From Klebsiella phage vB_KpM_FBKp34: a stretch of DNA of 64,000 nt. A model generated the notes under the pieces. It worked only from the letters and a program-made list of their open reading frames with translations. It was not told the origin of the DNA and searched no databases. Position 1 is the stretch's first letter, and every line of letters begins with the position of its first letter. This document shows positions 37,026-48,647 of this stretch, piece after piece. The stretch is from sequence record MW394390.1; one strand, 5' to 3'. Position numbers and translations under genes: made by a program.

Positions 37026-37299
37026 ATTAAACCTATGCTAAAATATAATTATTTAAACAACTAAAGGGACATTTTGAAAAAGTCTTATTTATCTAAATCA
37101 CACTCTAAAACTTTTAGTGTCACACATATTATTTTTGTTTCTAGATATAGAGAAATATATTCAATCTTAAGAAAGACCTGATTAACACTTAGCTCACTAA
37201 TCCCACACCTAAAGTGAGTGGGCTTATCGTTCGCAATTTGGTAATAGATTGAATAGTCTGTATCGTTCAATCGTTAGTTATGACGCTATATGCATATCA

Positions 37300-38700
37300 T
37301 CAGGCTATTTGACATCCTCCCCATCCTAAAGGATGGGGATTCCTAATTCATCGAGGTTTCTAATGAAACCTCTCCAAAGGCTTAAATTTCCGTGTGTCCC
37401 ACGGTATTTATTTCTATATAACTATAATATATTAAATTCTTTTATGCAGCAAGAGCTTTACAATTAAAAATTTCTAAACCTCTTTTATGAATATTTAAAG
37501 CAGCATTAATGTCTCGGTCATGGTCTGTTTTACAAGAAGGACACACCCAATGACGAACATTAAGTTTCAATTCCTCAAGAACATGACCACAACATGAACA
37601 AGTTTTAGACGAGGGATAGAATTGTTCTATCTTCACAATGCTACGTCCAAACCAGGATGCTTTATACTCAAGTTGCCTTACAAACTCACCCCAAGATGCA
37701 TCAGCAATATGTTTTGCCAATTTTCTATTTTTAATCATATTTTTAACTTTCAAAGTTTCAGTAGAAATTATTTGGTAAGTTTTTACTAAATTAGATGTTG
37801 CTTTATGCAATGCATCACGGCGAGAATCACTAACTTTAGCATGTGTTTTAGCAACTTTCAAACGCATTTTATTATAATTGCTTCCACCTTTTTTCATCCG
37901 ACTAAGTTTTCTCTGCAAACGTGCGAGACGTTTAGCATATTTCTTTGTAAACTTGCCATTTTTACCTTTAAGTCCATCTGCTGTAATATAAAGGTCTTTT
38001 AAACCAAGATCAATGCCTGTTGTCTTACTCGATATTGGCAGTTCTTCAATTTCAGTTTCACACAAACAAGACACAAAATATCTACCAGATGCATCTTTAC
38101 TGATAGTAATTGACGAAGGGTGACTTGGTAATTCACCATAACTCCATTTAACATCCAGCGAGACTTTCATTGATTTGGCAATGAAAAGTTGACCATTAAT
38201 GTATTTAAAAGCATTCTTCGTGAGATTAAATGAGTAACTATTATCATAACGGCTTTTGAACTTAGGAAATCTAGCTCTTCCAGAGAAAAAGTTGCTATAA
38301 GCTTTTTCTTGGTTTCTCAGTTCTTGTTGCAGTGCTACCACTGAAACTTCGTTAAGCCACTCATATTCTTTTTTAACTTTAGTTAACTCTCTCGATGCTT
38401 CGGCAAAGTTAATCTTATTTTTATCTTTTTCATAAGCCTCTTTTCTCCAAGCTAATATATGGTTATAGATAAAACGACAAGAACCAAATGTCTTAGCAAG
38501 AAGGATTTTTTGTTCTTGTGTTGGATAAAAACGCATTTTATAAGCTTTTAAAATAATCTTTTTCATTTGATCCCTTTCTAACTATCGTTCTCAGTTTGGT
38601 CAGAATTCACAAAGTGATCTAAATCATATTTAATAAATCATAAAATTGACATCCTCCTCACCCTAAAGATTGTGGAGTTTCTCCTTCATAGAACCTTATA
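37300..38700 (-). mobile_element. IS200/IS605-family tnpB-only element (IS1341-like) with subterminal hairpins
   Basis: The tnpB ORF is flanked by direct repeats TTGACATCCTCCYCAYCCTAAAGRAT at 37309-37336 and 38646-38670. Hairpins CCCCATCC taaa GGATGGGG and GAGGTTTC taat GAAACCTC lie just 3' of tnpB. Confidence 0.45.
37442..38566 (-). CDS. tnpB: TnpB (IS605 OrfB, RuvC-like RNA-guided nuclease)
   Basis: N-terminal RFYPTQEQ...FGSCRFIYN. RuvC-I motif [10 protein letters not shown]-terminal zinc ribbon CSCCGH...CPSCK. Confidence 0.75.
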
Positions 38701-41346: not shown

Positions 41347-41421
41347 TGGAGGGTAGTAGTGGAATCTAACCACTCTAATACTGTTTTGCAGACAGATACA
41401 TGAACACTCTGACAACTACCC
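41347..41421 (-). tRNA. tRNA-Cys (GCA)
   Basis: Acceptor GGGTAGT/ACTACCC. Anticodon loop CUGCAAA. T arm AGTGG/TTAGATT/CCACT. The D arm is weak. Confidence 0.5.
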
Positions 41422-42109: not shown

Positions 42110-42223
42110 TGGCGGTGAATTCAGGAATCGAACCTGAGCCTACTCCATGACAAGGGAGATTGAATGCTGTAAAACTTCTCTAAGAAGTTATTTTTAGTTA
42201 TTCTACCACTAAACTAATTCACC
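42110..42223 (-). ncRNA. 114-nt tRNA-like gene with canonical acceptor, D and T arms and an internal ~38-nt insertion
   Basis: GGTGAAT TA GTTTAGTGGTAGAAT ... TCAGG TTCGATT CCTGA ATTCACC G CCA. The anticodon cannot be assigned. Confidence 0.4.
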
Positions 42224-42312: not shown

Positions 42313-42350
42313 TGGTGTGGGAAGATGGAGTCGAACCAGCGAAGACGTAT
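42313..42350 (-). pseudogene. orphan tRNA 3' half (T arm and acceptor 3' strand plus CCA)
   Basis: GCTGG TTCGACT CCATC TTCCCAC A CCA with no matching 5' half. Confidence 0.3.
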
Positions 42351-42431
42351 GTCGGGAGTTTTACTATTCTCCAGTGTATTTGCTGTATAACTACATCGGC
42401 TAATTTAATTATCAGAAGCTATCTTTTCTAT

Positions 42432-42506
42432 ACTTTCGCTCTACCAGGCTGAGCTATTCCCCGTCAGTTGTTCGGGGAAGCAGGATTTGAACCTACGACC
42501 AAAAGT
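42432..42506 (-). ncRNA. matched tRNA halves in permuted order (3' half upstream of 5' half)
   Basis: 5' half CGGGGAA TA GCTC AGCCTGGTA GAGC G AAAGU. 3' half ACUUU UGGUC GUAGG UUCAAAU CCUGC UUCCCCG A. Acceptor pairs 7/7 and anticodon stem 5/5. An 8-nt linker joins them. Confidence 0.35.
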
Positions 42507-42749
42507 TCCCATTAGATTTTATTTGCTGTAAAGCTTCTTTGATAAAATTGTCGGCAGAAGAATTTATTTTCTATGCATGAAATTTTAAAATTGCTGTATT
42601 TCTTCTTGCCAAGATTTATTTATAAAAGATTCAGAAGATATTCTTTTCGCTACATTTCAAGTGTAATGTTGTTTTATATTTGCTGTAAATCTTCAAGAAC
42701 CTTTTATAGATAAATCTTTGTTTCTAAACTATGTATTTACTTTAGCATA

Positions 42750-42783
42750 GGGGCTAACACCTTGTCAACCCCTATTTTTAATT
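42750..42783 (+). terminator. plus-strand-oriented hairpin plus T-run
   Basis: AGGGGctaacaccttgtcaaCCCCT ATTTTTAATT. Confidence 0.35.
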
Positions 42784-42785
42784 AT

Positions 42786-44225
42786 TTAGAAATCATAACG
42801 TGGTACGTTAACTAACTTCTGCATAACTTTAACAGGTTCTAACTCACCTGTCAAGAGTCCTTTCATAATCGCTGGTGAAAATCCTGAAACCAATGCTGTA
42901 CCTTTCTGACCTACTTGAACTGGCACGTTGCCTCTCTGATGGGCTGCAAGATTCCAGAAAACAAGCTGAGGCATGGTATATCCAGACTGACTGTACATGA
43001 GAGCAATAGACTCAAAGTTTGTCATACCTGAAATAGCTTGGTTAAATTCCATATCAGAGAATACGATAACTTTACTAGGCATATCCCCTTGTGTCAAGTT
43101 GTGTTTCTTACCTAACTCAAGAATTCTTGCAAAAGCTTTCATAATATCAGTTGATCCATACTCAACATGTTCTTGTACCTTAGCAAGTTTCTGTGCAAGA
43201 GTCAAGGAACTTCCTACATCAATAAAATAAGGATTTGTTGAATACACCATCATCTGATCTTTAAAGATGCCTTTATTACGTTCAGCAATGTAAAGAGATA
43301 AAGCAATCCCTACATGAAGAGCATAAATATCACCAGAAACTTTTGCGTTATCAAAAGTCATTGAACCAGAAACATCAGATAAACAGATAATGTTTTCACT
43401 TGTACCTTCAGTATAATCTGGCAATGCTTTCCATTGGGCATTTGCTACTGACTTATCTCCGTGCATACAAGATTTTACAATATCATACGGATAAACAGCA
43501 CCTGCATTGATCTTAGCTTGTCCATCTTCTTTAATCAGGCTTTCACGATACTGTGCATAACGTTCACTGTCCACACGATTAAATAGTGCCTGATAACGTG
43601 CTGCTGCAAGTGATGGCAGCTTGCTATAATCAATAGCACCGTATTCTTTGCGAGAAAGACTCTGTTCCACAGTATTAGACAAAGAGGACAAGAGTTTATT
43701 ATATTCCTGATAACTCAGTTTCATAAATTTAGCAAGTACCTTTGCATTATTTTTATTTTTAACTGTGTTATTTCCACGCATACGTGGCATCCATTTTGCG
43801 CATAGTCCTGCGTTAGTCTTATCTGTTAAACAGTCAGCGATAAACTGCAAGGCTTCTTTTTCAACTGGTGTTCCAATAGCTTCAAGAACATCGTCCCAAC
43901 GACCAAGTTCTGGAATCTTAACTAACAAACGTGTTGCGAGTTTTGGATTCTGGTCACAAATGTTTTTAAATGTTTTTCTAAAAATATTTCTTTCACCCAT
44001 ACCTCCGCGAATATCTCGGGAGTACAGAAGAATACGTACAGCAGTTTCAGCATCTTCACTAAGAGCTTGCCAGAAAAGATCATCAGAAACAACATTCGGA
44101 TTCTTACGTAAAGTACCAATCTGGAAAAACAAATCCACATTTTTATTCAGTGAAGATTCATGAGTAACTGCACCATTAAGTGTCAGTTGGGACTTAGTAC
44201 GGGATGCATCAAACAGCTTAGACAT
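42786..44225 (-). CDS. vWA-domain protein with an N-terminal helical domain (DUF2828/TROVE-like?)
   Basis: MIDAS motif ICLSDVSGSMTF at about residue 283 of 479. Confidence 0.55.
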   Translation of the reverse strand: MSKLFDASRTKSQLTLNGAVTHESSLNKNVDLFFQIGTLRKNPNVVSDDLFWQALSEDAETAVRILLYSRDIRGGMGERNIFRKTFKNICDQNPKLATRLLVKIPELGRWDDVLEAIGTPVEKEALQFIADCLTDKTNAGLCAKWMPRMRGNNTVKNKNNAKVLAKFMKLSYQEYNKLLSSLSNTVEQSLSRKEYGAIDYSKLPSLAAARYQALFNRVDSERYAQYRESLIKEDGQAKINAGAVYPYDIVKSCMHGDKSVANAQWKALPDYTEGTSENIICLSDVSGSMTFDNAKVSGDIYALHVGIALSLYIAERNKGIFKDQMMVYSTNPYFIDVGSSLTLAQKLAKVQEHVEYGSTDIMKAFARILELGKKHNLTQGDMPSKVIVFSDMEFNQAISGMTNFESIALMYSQSGYTMPQLVFWNLAAHQRGNVPVQVGQKGTALVSGFSPAIMKGLLTGELEPVKVMQKLVNVPRYDF

Positions 44226-44623: not shown

Positions 44624-45478
44624 TTAGAAATTATCTATAACAGTTTCACCAGCTTCTAACCAAACTATCTTAAAAATTATACGGTTAGCATTACCTGATG
44701 TGTTAATTAAATTTACTTGAAAATTAGATCCTTTAGGGAAAATTTGATATCCTTGGTCTCTTGAGCTAGATGCTGAAGTCCTTTGTGACGGATTACTTCC
44801 GCTTGCTGGGATAAAAGATGGTATATCATATAAAGAACCTATTCCTGTAGGGTTCCCAGATAAAACATGAATACTCATTGTTGAATTTGAACCAAATCCT
44901 TGGTTACTTTTCACAGGGGTAATTAAAGAAGCATTAGTTTTTCCTGTACTACCTACATAAGTTCTTGCTTCAAACCCTGTATAAAAAGGTGTAAAATTGG
45001 TAGACACAATAGCGCACTCTTTGTCTGAAGGGACTATAAAATCAATCCATATGTTACCACCATTTGCAATGGTAAGATCCACTATTGCACTGTACAACCT
45101 ACCATCGATAGATGCTGCCTCTATTTGGGTTATTGTTTGTGTAAGTATTCTTGGTTCAATCAACCTTAAAAGTTTTCTAGAAGATGACCTCACATCTGAA
45201 GCCAAAACTTTATGTGCTGCTAATCTTCCCAAACCATAGGTTGAATCAGCTATAACAAAAACACCCTCCATTTGAGAGGGAACATAAAATTCTTCTTTTG
45301 AAGAAATTATATTAACTGTTGATTTATCAATATTTGTTACAGAACTCCCAAAATAAATCCTTATTGGAACTTCAGAGATATTTTCAAGAAGATAAGAAAA
45401 TTTAGAATCAAAACCAGATACAGTATAAAGATTAGTCCAAGTATCATTAGAAATATTTGGAGTGAGAACTCTATTCAT
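44624..45478 (-). CDS. hypothetical Ser/Thr/Asn-rich protein
   Basis: ORF. Confidence 0.4.
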   Translation of the reverse strand: MNRVLTPNISNDTWTNLYTVSGFDSKFSYLLENISEVPIRIYFGSSVTNIDKSTVNIISSKEEFYVPSQMEGVFVIADSTYGLGRLAAHKVLASDVRSSSRKLLRLIEPRILTQTITQIEAASIDGRLYSAIVDLTIANGGNIWIDFIVPSDKECAIVSTNFTPFYTGFEARTYVGSTGKTNASLITPVKSNQGFGSNSTMSIHVLSGNPTGIGSLYDIPSFIPASGSNPSQRTSASSSRDQGYQIFPKGSNFQVNLINTSGNANRIIFKIVWLEAGETVIDNF

Positions 45479-45567: not shown

Positions 45568-47253
45568 TTAAAGTTGTGACGCTGCTCGTTCACGAATCGT
45601 TGTCAGGTCTTCATCGACAATCAGCTTGCCGTTGTAGAACACACGACGCAACTCGTTATCGTCAGACTGTACATCTTCAAGCTGACAATTGTCAACCAGT
45701 TTCAGTTCGCCATTCTCATCACGAACAACCTTCAGGAAACCTTTTGCAGATTTCTTACCGAGGTCAGTCTTCGGTTCTTTGACAACCATGATCTGCTGAC
45801 CATCAATCACAGCGCCAGTTGCCTTAACAGCCATACCCAGTGAATCGCGGGTTGTGTACTGCGTGGTGAAAGAACCGACGCCGTAAACAATGTTGCTGGA
45901 TGCAAAACCTTTTTCTTTCAAACGTTCAAAGATGTCTTTTGCACGAGCAACAGTGATGGAGTCACCGTAAATCAGACCAACATGACTATCAAGAACTTTG
46001 TAACCTTTAGTGTTAAATTCACCACCGAAGATTTCCCACAGACACTGGATTGCACCTTTAACTTCATGCTCTTCAAGACCTGAAGGTTGGAAGTCGAAGT
46101 AGGCATTATTCTCATCGTCAACAAGAATCCGGTAGTATTTACCTTCAATCTTGGCAACTTCTGAATTTGAATCTTCCTGTAGTGCTGAGTGTGCATCAGA
46201 CCAGTCATCAAACTCACCGAGGCTACGATAGCCAGCAATGATATGCTCTGGAATACCAGAATCAGGACGGAATACTACACGACCATCACGGGCCATGATG
46301 TCCTGTTTCAGGATCGCTGCTGCTTTGGTGATAATCGCCCAAAAGTCATAACTGTCTGCCACGTAGGAAACAAAACCTTTAGGGAAAATTTCCGTAATGT
46401 AACGACGCAGGAACTCAACCTCAGCCAAGAAACGCGCTTCATCCAGAGTCAATTCAGGGTGTTCACCTTGTAAACGACCAACGATGAAACCGATGTTCGT
46501 TGTTGCAACAGAGTGTTCAGATGCAGGAATAGAACCAGCAACGAACTTGCCTTTCATGTTGTAATAACGATTTGCATACAGAATTGCTGGGATAGTATCA
46601 GTACCCATTGAGTTGATCAGTTGACCAAACTCACTCTGTGCTGCGTCGTGCGTCCCAGATTCACCACGATATGCGAAACAGTGGTTCTGGAAAGGCACAT
46701 GCAAGTTGTTATCGCAAGTCTCAGCAGCCCATTTTTCAGACAGCTTGCGATACTGCCAGAACGTAGTTGCAGTCGTAATAGTTTTCCAAGTTTCTGCGGA
46801 GATCACACTTTCCAGGAAGTTAGGCAACCAGTAAAAATCAGGATGCGTGTTCTGAATGGTGAACAGCGGAACCTGTACCGGAGACAGAGTACCTTCAGGA
46901 ATCGAACGGATTTCCAGTGGCAGATAACCAAGGTCATGCAGCTTTTCAAATCCCCAAGTTTCAACCATGTTAGGACCAATACTCAGATCACAAATTTCTT
47001 TGTACTGTTCAATAGCTTCTTCTTTACTTTTCTTGAAGAAGTTTTCGTTAAACATGTCGATAAGGAACCACTTAATGAATCCCTGAAGACCTGCCATCAT
47101 AACACGCTGGTCGTTATCAGCGAAGTGAATGAAGTGCTTCGCATTTCGTGGTGTCATGTTGTCCTGAACAATCTCAGAGCGTTTATCGTACATAGAAATG
47201 TGGCTTGGCTTATACCAATCCGCAAACATGATAGGGTTTTCTTTATACAGCAT
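45568..47253 (-). CDS. nadV: nicotinamide phosphoribosyltransferase (NAMPT/NadV)
   Basis: 561 aa. VFRPDSGIP and ADSYDFWAII match the NAMPT motifs (human VIRPDSGDP and SDSYD). Adjacent to prs. Confidence 0.8.
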   Translation of the reverse strand: MLYKENPIMFADWYKPSHISMYDKRSEIVQDNMTPRNAKHFIHFADNDQRVMMAGLQGFIKWFLIDMFNENFFKKSKEEAIEQYKEICDLSIGPNMVETWGFEKLHDLGYLPLEIRSIPEGTLSPVQVPLFTIQNTHPDFYWLPNFLESVISAETWKTITTATTFWQYRKLSEKWAAETCDNNLHVPFQNHCFAYRGESGTHDAAQSEFGQLINSMGTDTIPAILYANRYYNMKGKFVAGSIPASEHSVATTNIGFIVGRLQGEHPELTLDEARFLAEVEFLRRYITEIFPKGFVSYVADSYDFWAIITKAAAILKQDIMARDGRVVFRPDSGIPEHIIAGYRSLGEFDDWSDAHSALQEDSNSEVAKIEGKYYRILVDDENNAYFDFQPSGLEEHEVKGAIQCLWEIFGGEFNTKGYKVLDSHVGLIYGDSITVARAKDIFERLKEKGFASSNIVYGVGSFTTQYTTRDSLGMAVKATGAVIDGQQIMVVKEPKTDLGKKSAKGFLKVVRDENGELKLVDNCQLEDVQSDDNELRRVFYNGKLIVDEDLTTIRERAASQL

Positions 47254-47841
47254 CTTTTGTGTCTCCTTTGTGGTTTATTCTATAAAATATGCAATTTCTA
47301 TGAGAGTGTCTTTTACCTTTTACAACAGCACTAACTAAGCGATAGTCAAAGCCATAATCTCTCATCTCTTCATTGCCATTCATAATAGCAACTATTTCAT
47401 TTGTGTCAAGAGTTATTGCAAATATTGTGAAAGATAATCTTGTTGCCCTCCTCCCACTTGGCATATCCTTCAACCCATTGGCAAGTGCGTGAATTTGGTT
47501 AGTTTTGTTATCAACCCACTCAAGGTTTTCAACATTATTGTTTTGCTTGTTACCATCCTTGTGGTTGACTTGAGGAAGTCTTGTAGGATTAGGTATAAAT
47601 GCTTCTGCAACTACACGATGAACCTTGAGACTGACTTTCTTGCCACTTTTATCCTTCGTCCTAAGACGTAAATAACCACAATTATCTTCTTGAAATTTTA
47701 AAATCTTGCCTTTTACTTTACATAAGGTTCCTGTATCAGACCGTGCATAAACACGGTCAACAGAATAGATATTACCTTCGTTATCTACTTCAAGATATCC
47801 TTCAAAATCCTGAACGGATTTCTTTGAGAATTCCATGTTCA
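47243..47841 (-). CDS. HNH homing endonuclease (NUMOD4-HNH type)
   Basis: FEGYLEVDNEGNIYSV (NUMOD4). VNHKDGNKQNNNVENLEWV (HNH). Start reassigned to MNMEFS, which has a GGAGA SD. Overlaps the ends of both nadV and prs. Confidence 0.7.
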
Positions 47842-48647
47842 TTTCTCCCTGAAATATTTTCCATCCATGGATGGTAAGTGTAAACCTCATCAACAAACCC
47901 TTCGAGGATATCTATCCCTTTTGAGAAGATACCATGTGTAACGTATAAAATTACACGTTTTGCACCTTTTTGTTTAAGAACCTCCCCTAATTTAAGAAAG
48001 GTGAACGCACCATCGGCGATGTCATCTACGATGACACATTCTTTACCAGCCACATCCCCAAAAACCTCTGTCCCGAAAATTTCTCCTGTCGTTACATCAC
48101 GAACCTTACCAGCCTCCACCAGTGGAAGGCGCATACGATCTGCAACCTTTTGTGCTTTCTTCCTTGCACCAGCATCTGGTGCTACAATAATAACGTCTCC
48201 ACCATAAAGGTGGTCATGGAATTCTGAAATCAGTATATCTTGACCACGAACATGAACATTGTTTAGTAATGCTGTTGAAACATCACTATGTGGATCATCT
48301 ACCACAACTTTATCAAAACCAAGCGAGTTTACAATGTTTGCAAATACCTTAATGGCAAGAGCTTCACCAGGCTGCATCACACGATCCTGCCGAGCATAGG
48401 GGATGTAAGGCAGATTTAGAGTAAACTCTGCATGAACATCAAGATTCTCAAGCCGAGAAACTGCATCCACGAGTAAAGCCAATACCATAATATCCGCAGA
48501 ATTTTTAATCTTTGCTGTAATGTCAACAAAACCAATACTACCTTTCGGAGCATGGTTCAAGTCAATCTTCACTTGCTCCTCACCACCTTTGAACGTAAAG
48601 TGGTCTACAGGAACAATAAGTTTGTTCAGTCTAAGTTCAAGACTCAT
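47802..48647 (-). CDS. prs: ribose-phosphate pyrophosphokinase (PRPP synthetase)
   Basis: 281 aa. PRPP-binding loop CVIVDDIADGAFT. NLDVHAEF region. Confidence 0.8.
   Translation of the reverse strand: MSLELRLNKLIVPVDHFTFKGGEEQVKIDLNHAPKGSIGFVDITAKIKNSADIMVLALLVDAVSRLENLDVHAEFTLNLPYIPYARQDRVMQPGEALAIKVFANIVNSLGFDKVVVDDPHSDVSTALLNNVHVRGQDILISEFHDHLYGGDVIIVAPDAGARKKAQKVADRMRLPLVEAGKVRDVTTGEIFGTEVFGDVAGKECVIVDDIADGAFTFLKLGEVLKQKGAKRVILYVTHGIFSKGIDILEGFVDEVYTYHPWMENISGRNEHGILKEIRSGF

What the first reader, a model, noticed from the sequence alone, without database searches (positions are those of the whole stretch)
42110..42223. tRNA-like gene with a ~38-nt internal insertion
This 114-nt element has a perfect 7-bp acceptor stem (GGTGAAT/ATTCACC), a discriminator plus CCA, a perfect T arm (TCAGG/TTCGATT/CCTGA) and a D-arm-like TAGTTTAGTGGTAGAAT. 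The central region is about 38 nt too long and I cannot fold a 7-nt anticodon loop in it. Candidates are an 8-nt loop CUUGUCAU on a CUCC/GGAG stem, or a 7-bp hairpin with a triloop. It could be an intron-containing tRNA, a tRNA with an extended anticodon (frameshift-suppressor type) or a tRNA-derived regulatory RNA.
Basis: seen in the sequence. Interest (0 to 1): 0.6.

Follow-up and report, generated by a model that had tools for sequence, protein, structure and literature searches.

The report
tRNA carrying a Ro60-like docking cassette
This phage gene encodes a complete tRNA-shaped RNA whose anticodon stem is interrupted by a conserved 40-base cassette, the same cassette that marks the small RNAs encoded beside the phage's Ro60-like protein, so it is probably a tRNA-shaped partner RNA of that protein and not an ordinary or broken tRNA.

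Summary
On the minus strand (42223->42110) there is a tRNA body with a 7-bp acceptor stem, G73-CCA, a D arm and a T arm, plus about 40 extra bases. Rfam's tRNA model scores it 47.7 bits with a 51-nt insert. Default ARAGORN misses it. ARAGORN with introns calls tRNA-Asp(GUC) with a 40-nt intron.

The insert is a conserved cassette: an A-rich linker, a 7-bp hairpin, then single-stranded UUACAGCA. It sits in the 5' strand of the anticodon stem, after nt 29.

The same signature (stem + U[U/A]ACAGCAA ... stem + CUG) marks the small RNAs between this element and a gene 0.56 kb upstream. That gene's product (DUF2828 + vWA) models as a full-length Ro60 fold. The signature recurs beside its homologues in phages of four bacterial phyla.

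In 31 of 70 distinct members, removing the cassette rebuilds a canonical anticodon arm.

Best reading: a tRNA-shaped, Y-RNA-like partner of the Ro60-like protein. Whether the cassette is later excised as an intron is unresolved. I found no description of it in the papers I could search.

The parts
42110..42223 (-). Whole element: 114-nt tRNA(Asp)-shaped RNA with an embedded cassette and an encoded CCA
   Evidence: Rfam tRNA 47.7 bits. Family model R1 76.2 bits. ARAGORN -i calls tRNA-Asp(gtc) i(31,40). Identical in KP13-16.
42217..42223 (-). Acceptor stem 5' strand, GGUGAAU. It pairs with 42114-42120 (AUUCACC). G73 is at 42113 and CCA at 42110-42112.
   Evidence: Read from the sequence. Acceptor pairs are 99.6% paired with double changes across 74 distinct family members.
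42200..42214 (-). D arm, GUUU-AGUGGUA-GAAU
   Evidence: All four D-stem pairs covary in the family.
42196..42198 (-). Proximal part of the anticodon stem, A27 C28 U29, which pairs with A41 G42 U43 at 42142-42144
   Evidence: Infernal pairs ACU with AGU across the insert. In the family the proximal bases covary with the 3' strand: 31 of 70 perfect against 8.2+-2.3 when swapped among members.
42156..42195 (-). Cassette of 40 nt (39 nt if it ends at 42157). Linker AAAAAU is 42190-42195. Hairpin AACUUCU-UAG-AGAAGUU is 42173-42189. Motif UUACAGCA is 42165-42172. Linker UUCAAUCU(C) is 42156-42164.
   Evidence: Coordinates. Hairpin: 7 pairs, 95% of cells paired, every pair with changes on both sides. 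The motif bases U.ACAGCA were invariant in the 18-sequence seed alignment.
42142..42155 (-). Distal anticodon stem and loop: CC-UUGUCAU-GGAGU, anticodon GUC. The alternative reading is the local hairpin CUCC-CUUGUCAU-GGAG with an 8-nt loop.
42121..42137 (-). T arm, UCAGG-UUCGAUU-CCUGA
42786..44225 (-). 479-aa DUF2828 + DUF7788 (vWA) protein with a Ro60-like fold; proposed protein partner
   Evidence: Pfam. AF2 model pLDDT 85. The top 11 PDB matches are all Ro60/TROVE, E from 5e-9 to 1e-6, TM up to about 0.6.
42739..42768 (-). Sigma-70-like promoter match (TTGACA-18-TAAAGT, TG extension) between the protein gene and the RNA array
   Evidence: This is a consensus match only.
42632..42694 (-). 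Stand-alone small RNA 1: GAAGA-UUUACAGCAA...UCUUC-UG
   Evidence: Rfam Dicty_Class_I 25.2 bits, below threshold.
42555..42605 (-). Stand-alone small RNA 2: GAAGA-AAUACAGCAA...UCUUC-UG
   Evidence: Rfam Dicty_Class_I 23.6 bits, below threshold.
42412..42537 (-). Permuted tRNA-like unit (YrlA-like). Order: GAAGC-UUUACAGCAA, anticodon-stem 3' strand ACUUU, T arm, closed acceptor hairpin, D arm, anticodon-stem 5' strand AAAGU, GCUUC-UGA. It is a circular permutation of the element's architecture.
   Evidence: Rfam YrlA 39.6 bits against a gathering score of 69. Structure read from the sequence.
42313..42400 (-). 5' part of a further permuted unit (GUAGU-UAUACAGCAA...) fused to the 3' end of tRNA-Tyr by a deletion of about 950 bp
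   Evidence: Comparison with KP13-16.

Best explanation
The element is a gene for a chimeric RNA. It has a full tRNA(Asp)-type body with a 40-nt cassette bulging out of the 5' strand of the anticodon stem. The cassette is an A-rich linker, a 7-bp hairpin and single-stranded UUACAGCA. It is the hairpin-closed version of the module (terminal stem + UUACAGCAA ... + CUG) that defines the small RNAs encoded next to the phage's Ro60-like DUF2828-vWA protein.

Proposed mechanism:
- The element is transcribed within the polycistronic tRNA array. It lies 6 nt after tRNA-Asp and 8 nt before tRNA-Glu.
- RNase P and 3' trimming to the encoded CCA release it like any tRNA.
- The tRNA fold gives it stability and may let it engage tRNA-binding proteins, since the anticodon bases are kept.
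- The cassette docks the Ro60-like ring protein, as Y RNAs dock Ro60.
- The resulting particle would work like a Ro60/Y-RNA complex, gating or tethering the protein to RNA-processing or defence factors.

Shown here: the structure, its conservation and covariation, membership in a large family, the shared cassette, physical linkage to the protein gene, and the predicted Ro60 fold.

Inferred, not shown: transcription and processing, protein binding, the function of the particle, and that the cassette stays in the mature RNA.
For: 1. The same module occurs five times within 600 nt downstream of the Ro60-like gene. Two copies are stand-alone RNAs, two are in permuted tRNA-like units, and one is closed by a triloop inside this tRNA.
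2. The protein models as a full-length Ro60 fold.
3. In 80 viral loci retrieved only through the protein, the motif is strand-biased, with 79 copies on the gene strand and 38 on the other against about 41 expected per strand. It lies within 500 nt downstream of the gene in at least 25 of the 80 loci, against about 2.4 expected.
4. In the reverse direction, 33 of 49 loci retrieved only through the RNA pattern and holding a clean cassette-bearing tRNA carry a DUF2828 gene within the few kb held, often a few hundred bases downstream on the same strand. The protein occurs in 709 of 50,697 phage records.
5. The module lies next to the gene in Listeria phage A511, Campylobacter phage CP81, mycobacteriophage Whirlwind and Vibrio phage ValKK3.
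6. A family model built without this phage scores the element 76.2 bits and finds 80 members in 47 sources. The cassette hairpin is 95% paired with double changes at all 7 pairs. The whole structure is 97.6% paired against about 45% in slid controls.
7. Many relatives have a full 5-bp anticodon stem with the cassette in place of loop positions 32-33. They lack U33, so they cannot be decoding tRNAs whatever happens to the cassette.
8. The phage has an ordinary tRNA-Asp(GUC) immediately upstream.
9. There are precedents. YrlA Y RNAs carry a tRNA-like domain. M. smegmatis YrlA is cut by RNase P and receives CCA (PMC4201824). A Ro60-like protein of phage Bas63, encoded directly upstream of its tRNA genes, counters the Ppl defence, and its authors guessed that some of those 'tRNAs' are Y RNAs (PMC11482910).
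Against: 1. Removing the cassette restores a perfect 5-bp anticodon stem and a canonical 7-nt loop (U33, purine 37) in 31 of 70 distinct members. They carry at least 11 different anticodon identities, and by inspection some bodies match those identities. This is what a real intron would look like.
2. The anticodon hairpin is identical between XbC2 and Kaldavass while the flanking linkers have diverged, which suggests selection on the anticodon arm.
3. No binding, expression or processing data exist.
4. The canonical Ro60-binding motif of YrlA (GNCGAAN0-1G) is absent, and Rfam's YrlA model does not hit the element.
5. Among the 80 closest protein homologues, only 2 loci have tRNA-topology members, so this form is a minority partner.
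6. In XbC2 and Kaldavass no DUF2828 gene lies within 4 kb of the element.
Confidence: 0.6

Rival explanations
1. It is a true intron-containing tRNA-Asp gene. The 40-nt cassette is cut out by proteins (an endonuclease plus an RtcB-type ligase, from phage or host), giving a working 74-nt tRNA-Asp(GUC) and possibly releasing the cassette as a small RNA.
For: ARAGORN -i calls tRNA-Asp(gtc) with a 40-nt intron. The joined exons form the perfect stem ACUCC/GGAGU with the loop UUGUCAU. The joined exons align end to end with uninterrupted phage tRNAs at 77-79% identity. In 31 of 70 distinct family members the split stem is perfect, against 8.2+-2.3 in permutations. Listeria phage A511 encodes an annotated 'tRNA splicing ligase' 1.3 kb from its DUF2828 gene.
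Against: No protein-dependent tRNA splicing is known in bacteria or their phages (my own knowledge). The cassette is far too short for a group I intron, and no ribozyme family matched it. Its position inside the helix, after nt 27, 28 or 29, is not the canonical 37/38 site, and I saw no convincing bulge-helix-bulge on inspection. None of the 19 window ORFs scanned is an RNA ligase or splicing endonuclease. Relatives with the cassette in place of nt 32-33 cannot give a U33 loop. This element has a redundant normal tRNA-Asp next door. Its loop is 8 nt unless the 3' junction is placed after one particular C.
Confidence: 0.25
2. It is a decaying tRNA pseudogene that was disrupted by the chance insertion of a small repeated or mobile sequence.
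For: The cassette is repeated nearby. The region is recombination-prone, with a deletion of about 950 bp between T loops relative to KP13-16. The anticodon loop is irregular at 8 nt. A normal tRNA-Asp is present.
Against: All four tRNA stems and the cassette hairpin are intact. The element is identical in KP13-16 and conserved at full length in distant jumbo phages, with compensatory changes in the hairpin. Eighty members with strong covariation show purifying selection.
Confidence: 0.07
3. It is a frameshift-suppressor tRNA that reads a four-base codon with the 8-nt loop CUUGUCAU.
For: The local hairpin CUCC-CUUGUCAU-GGAG is in the minimum-free-energy fold. One jumbo-phage lineage also gives an 8-nt loop, AUUCAUAA.
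Against: This does not explain the 40-nt cassette or its conservation. In that fold the stem has only 4 bp. Most relatives have 7-nt loops or no loop at all. A 114-nt RNA with a large side arm on the anticodon stem is unlikely to fit the ribosome (inference).
Confidence: 0.03
4. It is a type II tRNA (Tyr, Ser, Leu or Sec) whose extra bases form a long variable arm.
For: Only the overall length suggests this.
Against: The extra bases lie 5' of the anticodon, between the D arm and the anticodon loop. The variable region is 4 nt, AGGC. Neither ARAGORN nor Rfam gives such an assignment, and there is no tRNA-Sec hit here.
Confidence: 0.01

Closest known systems
YrlA / bacterial Y RNAs bound by Ro60 (Rsr), Rfam RF02553 (Chen et al. 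2014, PMC4201824)
   Same: Both are small RNAs encoded on the same strand within about 1 kb of a Ro60-fold protein gene. Both contain a tRNA-like domain with T and D arms and an acceptor-type stem. Several copies occur per locus, some without the tRNA-like part (like YrlB). M. smegmatis YrlA is cut by RNase P and receives CCA. The neighbouring unit at 42412-42537 gives a sub-threshold YrlA hit of 39.6 bits.
   Different: The protein belongs to the DUF2828 family, not Pfam TROVE. The conserved RNA motif is U(U/A)ACAGCAA followed by a 3' CUG, not GNCGAAN0-1G. The element has normal tRNA topology, with an open acceptor stem bearing CCA and a protein-binding helix closed by a triloop, whereas YrlA is the circular permutation of that. 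It keeps an anticodon stem-loop, which YrlA lacks.
Dictyostelium Class I RNAs, Rfam RF01414 (Kjellin et al. 2021, PMC7919456)
   Same: The neighbouring stand-alone RNAs share the architecture: a short 5'/3' terminal stem, the motif (CC)UUACAGCAA directly after the 5' strand, a variable middle, and a 3' strand followed by CUG(U) in which C pairs with the 5' G. The Rfam model repeatedly picks exactly these RNAs in unrelated phages at 23-27.5 bits.
   Different: All scores are below the gathering score of 41.5. The hosts are eukaryotic. Those RNAs have an RNA-polymerase promoter element (DUSE) and no tRNA part. Their known direct binder is an RRM protein, CIBP. I could not test whether dictyostelids have a DUF2828 protein that binds them. 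The resemblance may be convergent or due to chance.
Archaeal tRNA introns at non-canonical positions, and permuted tRNA genes
   Same: These are short intervening sequences (tens of bases) inside tRNA genes at places other than 37/38, including the anticodon stem. Permuted versions of the same RNA coexist with them.
   Different: Those introns are defined by a bulge-helix-bulge motif cut by the EndA endonuclease. No such motif or enzyme is evident here, the host is a bacterium, and the insert carries a conserved sequence motif shared with non-tRNA RNAs.
Group I introns in bacterial and phage tRNA genes
   Same: Both interrupt the anticodon arm of a tRNA gene in bacteria or phages.
   Different: Group I introns are over 200 nt, self-splicing, and sit in the anticodon loop. 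This insert is 40 nt, with a single hairpin and no Rfam intron hit.

Membership tests
tRNA (RF00005) | Cloverleaf scoring above Rfam's gathering score | tested here: met
   47.7 bits against 29, covering model positions 1-71.
tRNA (RF00005) | Contiguous 5-bp anticodon stem with a 7-nt loop | tested here: not met
   A 51-nt insertion replaces model positions 30-40. The stem is split after nt 29 by a 40-nt cassette. Default ARAGORN makes no call.
tRNA (RF00005) | Aminoacylation and decoding | not testable with these tools
   G73, CCA and a GUC triplet are present. No biochemical data exist.
YrlA / Y RNA (RF02553) | Encoded next to a Ro60-type protein gene, on the same strand | tested here: met
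   It lies 563 nt downstream of a DUF2828-vWA gene whose model matches Ro60 over its full length. The linkage holds in 33 of 49 RNA-anchored loci.
YrlA / Y RNA (RF02553) | tRNA-like domain with T arm, D arm and an acceptor-like stem | tested here: met
YrlA / Y RNA (RF02553) | Permuted topology: acceptor-like stem closed by a loop, RNA ends in the Ro-binding stem | tested here: not met
   The element has an open acceptor stem with CCA and a closed cassette hairpin. The neighbouring unit 42412-42537 does have the permuted topology.
YrlA / Y RNA (RF02553) | GNCGAAN0-1G motif near the 5' end; score above gathering | tested here: not met
   The motif is UUACAGCA. There is no YrlA hit on the element. 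The neighbouring unit scores 39.6 bits against 69.
YrlA / Y RNA (RF02553) | Bound by the Ro60 protein | not testable with these tools
   Needs immunoprecipitation or a gel-shift assay.
Ro60 / TROVE protein family (for the upstream gene) | HEAT-repeat ring plus a vWA domain | tested here: met
   AF2 pLDDT 85, pTM 0.85. Foldseek ranks 1-11 are all Ro60/TROVE, with alignments of 512-570 columns.
Ro60 / TROVE protein family (for the upstream gene) | Match to Pfam TROVE, or sequence similarity to solved Ro60 structures | tested here: not met
   Pfam gives DUF2828 + DUF7788 only. phmmer against PDB sequences finds no Ro60. The similarity is structural only.
Group I intron in tRNA | Self-splicing fold of over 200 nt | tested here: not met
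   The insert is 40 nt with one hairpin. No Rfam intron hit at E <= 10.
Archaeal-type spliced tRNA | Bulge-helix-bulge at both junctions, and an EndA endonuclease | tested here: inconclusive
   I saw no convincing BHB by eye, but I did not run a formal search. No endonuclease or RNA ligase is among the 19 window ORFs scanned. The rest of the genome is not in the window.
Dictyostelium Class I RNA (RF01414), for the neighbouring stand-alone RNAs | Terminal stem + CCUUACAGCAA + 3' CUGU; score above gathering | tested here: not met
   The architecture and 9 of the 11 motif bases are shared, but scores are 15.5-27.5 bits against 41.5.
Type II tRNA (long variable arm) | Extra arm between positions 44 and 48 | tested here: not met
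   The variable region is AGGC. The extra bases lie 5' of the anticodon.

The most novel reading that the evidence does not exclude
The cassette is a real intron of a new class. On this reading, phages of bacteria carry a protein-dependent tRNA splicing pathway. The Ro60-like DUF2828 protein recognises the hairpin + UUACAGCA cassette in pre-tRNAs, the cassette is excised, and the exons are joined by an RtcB-type ligase. That would yield both a working tRNA and a Y-like small RNA. A second reading is also not excluded. The DUF2828 protein together with the 'stem-UUACAGCAA-CUG' RNA may be an ancient pair that also includes the Class I RNAs of Dictyostelium, which are currently thought to be unique to social amoebae.
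Probability: 0.2. Interest if true: 0.9.

Novelty: new variant of a known kind. Interest (0 to 1): 0.7.

Why it matters
Ro60-like proteins are encoded by at least 709 sequenced phages. One of them was recently shown to counter a bacterial defence system (PMC11482910). Their RNA partners are unknown outside the classical TROVE/YrlA case.

This element, read with its neighbours, gives a concrete and searchable signature for those partners: stem + U[U/A]ACAGCAA + CUG. It also shows that the signature can be grafted into complete tRNAs of many identities.

These genes are currently missed or mislabelled in phage annotation. Examples are 'tRNA-Phe (AAA)' and 'tRNA-OTHER', small ORFs called over the RNA, and no call at all.

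The element makes two questions directly testable. The first is what phage Ro60-like particles bind and do. The second is whether bacteria-infecting viruses have an enzyme-driven tRNA splicing pathway.

Tried and rejected
- **Type II tRNA or tRNA-Sec.** Rejected because of the position of the insert.
- **Group I intron or other ribozyme.** No Rfam hit at E <= 10 on the 670-nt region.
- **Splicing or repair enzymes in the window.** Pfam scans of 19 ORFs found none. They found only an ATP-dependent DNA ligase, TnpB, an HNH endonuclease, NAD-salvage genes and structural genes. The window is less than half of the genome, so their absence is weak evidence.
- **AcrIIIA1.** This staphylococcal phage protein co-purifies with tRNA fragments (PMC11662646). 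I considered it as a relative and dropped it, because its authors report almost no homologues, so it is not DUF2828.
- **Dictyostelium link.** The afdb50 fold library, which could show whether Dictyostelium has a DUF2828 protein, was unavailable. Searches for DUF2828, DDB_G0281243 and the motif itself found nothing relevant.
- **A 6-bp threshold for the terminal stem of stand-alone RNAs.** It does not discriminate, since 59% of random positions pass. I therefore relied on strand bias, position relative to the gene, and inspection instead.
- **A local-hairpin control.** It passes at 10% of random positions. The hairpin evidence therefore rests on the covariance model and pair counts.
- **R1 on the 80 closest protein homologues.** Only 2 loci have tRNA-topology members. 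That form is uncommon in this subgroup, where stand-alone and permuted forms dominate.
- **Redundancy test.** I asked whether a normal tRNA with the same anticodon is present. The result, 6 of 26, was uninformative because only a few kb per contig are held.
Full report
**1. What is there**

The element lies on the minus strand, from 42223 to 42110. It reads:

GGUGAAU-UA-GUUU-AGUGGUA-GAAU-A-ACU-[AAAAAU AACUUCU-UAG-AGAAGUU UUACAGCA UUCAAUCU(C)]-CC-(C)UUGUCAU-GGAGU-AGGC-UCAGG-UUCGAUU-CCUGA-AUUCACC-G-CCA

- Rfam's tRNA model matches end to end at 47.7 bits (gathering score 29). It pairs ACU with AGU across a 51-nt insertion that replaces the rest of the anticodon arm.
- Default ARAGORN finds 17 tRNAs in the window but not this one.
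- With introns allowed, ARAGORN calls tRNA-Asp(gtc) with a 40-nt intron.
- The element sits inside a dense tRNA array, 6 nt after tRNA-Asp(GUC) and 8 nt before tRNA-Glu.

**2. It is conserved, not an accident**

The window comes from a Stephanstirmvirinae phage. Its closest relative is Klebsiella phage KP13-16, which carries an identical, unannotated copy.

Full-length relatives at about 73% identity occur in the 367-kb jumbo phages Xanthomonas XbC2 and Erwinia Kaldavass. There they are annotated 'tRNA-Phe (AAA)', 115 nt, and 'tRNA-OTHER'. The alignment shows the hairpin kept through compensatory changes: CUUCU/AGAAG, AUUCA/UGAAU and AUUCC/GGAAU. The hairpin is followed by an invariant U.AC.GCA.

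**3. The insert is a cassette shared with the neighbouring small RNAs**

Between the element and the gene upstream, the motif U(U/A)ACAGCAA recurs four more times. Each copy directly follows the 5' strand of a stem whose 3' strand is followed by UG.
- Two copies are stand-alone RNAs of 51 and 63 nt (42555-42605 and 42632-42694).
- One is a permuted tRNA-like unit (42412-42537). It has a T arm, an acceptor hairpin, a D arm and a 5-bp anticodon-type stem AAAGU/ACUUU. Rfam YrlA scores it 39.6 bits, below the gathering score of 69.
- One is a unit truncated by a deletion (42313-42400).

The element is the circular permutation of the permuted unit. It has the same A-rich strand, stem and UUACAGCA. 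The difference is that the stem is closed by a UAG triloop and the RNA ends lie in the acceptor stem.

**4. The upstream gene encodes a Ro60-like protein**

ORF 42786-44225 (479 aa) matches Pfam DUF2828 + DUF7788/vWA. It has no sequence match to solved structures.

An AlphaFold2 model built from 35 homologues (pLDDT 85, pTM 0.85) matches Ro60/TROVE structures over its full length. These take ranks 1-11 in the PDB search, with E from 5e-9 to 1e-6 and TM up to about 0.6. They include Xenopus and Deinococcus Ro60 and the Ro60 of Thermus phage phiLo.

The family is large. There are more than 6,500 clusters in the protein database and 709 phage records. The hosts include Escherichia and Salmonella (FelixO1-like phages), Vibrio, Listeria, Staphylococcus, Campylobacter, Enterococcus, Bacillus and Mycobacterium. 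In mycobacteriophages the protein is annotated 'Ro-like RNA binding protein'.

**5. The protein and the RNA signature travel together**

Starting from the protein:
- In 80 viral contigs retrieved through the protein alone, the motif occurs 79 times on the gene strand and 38 times on the other. About 41 per strand are expected.
- It lies within 500 nt downstream of the stop codon in at least 25 of the 80 loci, where about 2.4 are expected.
- The flanking stems differ between phages but stay complementary: UUGGUUCC/GGAACCAG, AGGCUUC/GAAGCCUG, AGGAUUG/CAAUCCUG and GAAGACCAA/UUGGUCUG.

Starting from the RNA:
- Of the 49 loci with a clean cassette-bearing tRNA, 33 carry a DUF2828 gene within the few kb held, often a few hundred bases downstream on the same strand.

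The same RNAs lie beside the gene in four well-known phages:
- Listeria phage A511 has three in tandem.
- Campylobacter phage CP81 has two, partly annotated as a small ORF.
- Mycobacteriophage Whirlwind has one, next to a sub-threshold YrlA hit.
- In Vibrio phage ValKK3 the RNA overlaps the gene's own ribosome-binding region.

**6. Cassette-bearing tRNAs form a large structured family**

I aligned 18 members from unrelated contigs, leaving out this phage and KP13-16. RNAalifold independently predicted the acceptor, D, cassette-hairpin and T helices, and 20 of the 23 pairs showed compensatory changes.

The covariance model built on that alignment (R1) gives these results:
- It scores the window's element 76.2 bits, against 41.9 bits or less for ordinary tRNAs.
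- Across 74 distinct sequences, 97.6% of cells are paired, against 40-48% when partners are slid by 1-3 columns.
- The cassette hairpin is 95% paired, and all 7 of its pairs change on both sides. That alignment is fitted to the model and so leans towards the structure. The MAFFT/RNAalifold result is independent of it.

**7. Where the cassette sits, and what is left of the anticodon arm**

In 31 of 70 distinct members, removing the cassette after nt 27, 28 or 29 rebuilds a perfect 5-bp anticodon stem with a 7-nt loop, U33 and a purine at 37. The anticodons are Thr, Asn, Pro, Lys, Asp, Gln, Glu, Val, Gly, His and Ser. Swapping the bases 5' of the cassette among members gives 8.2+-2.3 perfect stems, with a maximum of 17 in 1000 trials. 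The split stem is therefore real.

By inspection, some bodies match their anticodons. One Glu member has a D arm resembling that of E. coli tRNA-Glu, and the Gly-like members have a G1-C2-G3 acceptor stem with U73 (the comparison with E. coli tRNAs rests on my own knowledge).

Other members keep the whole 5-bp stem and carry the cassette in place of loop positions 32-33. They retain only the five bases that look like positions 34-38, for example GCCAA or UCCAA. These lack U33 and cannot decode, whatever happens to the cassette.

In this window the joined exons give ACUCC-UUGUCAU-GGAGU, which is Asp GUC, if the cassette is 40 nt. They give an 8-nt loop if it is 39 nt.

The joined exons align end to end with uninterrupted tRNAs of other phages. 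They are 77% identical to a Kuttervirus tRNA-Asn and 79% identical to a T4-like phage's tRNA-Thr.

An orthologue in contig L284 has the loop CUGUCAC (Asp), while XbC2 and Kaldavass have CUUUCAC on the same body. That change suggests the decoding identity is not strictly held.

**8. Interpretation**

The best-supported reading is a tRNA-shaped member of a Y-RNA-like family. The tRNA body would provide processing by the tRNA machinery, stability, and possibly contact with proteins that read tRNAs. The cassette would dock the Ro60-like protein.

Three precedents support this reading:
- YrlA RNAs have a tRNA-like domain.
- M. smegmatis YrlA is cut by RNase P and gains CCA (PMC4201824).
- The Ro60 of phage phiLo binds two phage Y-like RNAs and host PNPase (PMC12135203).

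A Ro60-like protein of phage Bas63, encoded directly upstream of its tRNA genes, counters the Ppl defence. Its authors guessed that some of those 'tRNA' genes are Y RNAs (PMC11482910). FelixO1-like contigs in my set show that same arrangement. That Bas63 gp130 belongs to DUF2828 is my inference and was not tested.

The main rival is a true intron. It explains the canonical rebuilt anticodon arms better. It needs an unknown endonuclease and a ligase, and nothing of that kind was found among the 19 ORFs scanned here. A511 does have an RtcB-type 'tRNA splicing ligase' near its DUF2828 gene.

I put about 0.6 on the stable chimeric partner RNA and about 0.25 on excision. The two are not fully exclusive.

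**9. Comparison with known families, and novelty**

The system works like Ro60/Y RNA, but it fails defining features of Rfam YrlA. It has a different motif, a different topology and sub-threshold scores, and the protein is not in Pfam TROVE.

The stand-alone neighbours resemble Dictyostelium Class I RNAs closely in architecture: a terminal stem, (CC)UUACAGCAA, and a 3' CUG(U) (PMC7919456). The Rfam model for that family repeatedly hits exactly these RNAs in unrelated phages, but always below its threshold, at 15.5-27.5 bits against 41.5. I could not test whether dictyostelids have a DUF2828 partner.

The paper library I could search has no description of the UUACAGCAA signature in phages or of cassette-bearing phage tRNAs. 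I therefore rate it a new variant of a known kind.

Noticed in passing
window 37442-38566 (-) and 37296-37374 (-): A TnpB-type ORF (HTH_OrfB_IS605 + OrfB_IS605 + Cas12f1-like TNB domains) sits inside the tRNA region. A sub-threshold Rfam HgcC hit (30.2 bits) lies just 3' of it and is probably its guide (omega/re) RNA.
   Followed up: partly
window 47243-47896 (-): An HNH_3 + NUMOD4 endonuclease ORF lies between the NAPRTase and prs genes. KP13-16 has only a 153-nt ORF at that place, so this looks like a homing-endonuclease insertion.
   Followed up: partly
window 42313-42400 (-) compared with L001 6970-7940: About 950 bp are deleted relative to KP13-16 by recombination between two T loops (UGGUUCGA). 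The deletion fuses a permuted Y-like unit to the 3' end of tRNA-Tyr and removes tRNA-Thr, tRNA-Gln and tRNA-Tyr. It also removes a further permuted unit, and KP13-16 carries other unexamined sequence between its tRNA-Thr and tRNA-Gln.
   Followed up: partly
window 41350-41421 (-): Rfam calls a tRNA here (43.9 bits) that ARAGORN does not report.
   Followed up: no
L403 2440-2520 (Vibrio phage ValKK3): The stem + UUACAGCAA module overlaps the ribosome-binding site and start codon of the DUF2828 gene itself. This could be autoregulation by the protein binding its own leader.
   Followed up: no
L401 5351-6503 (Listeria phage A511); L402 208-1140 (mycobacteriophage Whirlwind): A511 has an annotated 'tRNA splicing ligase' (RtcB type) and an HD phosphohydrolase within 1.5 kb of its DUF2828 gene. 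Whirlwind has a Band-7-like gene nearby. The A511 ligase recalls the bacterial rsr-rtcB RNA-repair neighbourhood.
   Followed up: no
L404 2331-2468 (Campylobacter phage CP81); L002 4001-4115 (XbC2): There are likely mis-annotations in public records. A small ORF is called over two cassette RNAs in CP81. In XbC2 a cassette-bearing tRNA is labelled 'tRNA-Phe (AAA)', apparently reading the A-rich linker as the anticodon.
   Followed up: partly
L290 1455-1578: This cassette-bearing tRNA has the 5' stem strand UCAGA present both before and after the cassette, which looks like a duplication. It has a CUCUAAA loop (CUA, amber-suppressor type) and a long variable arm.
   Followed up: no
window 44624-45478 (-): A 284-aa ORF with no Pfam match lies between the 80-aa ORF and the NAPRTase gene. 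It is absent from the corresponding place in KP13-16.
   Followed up: no
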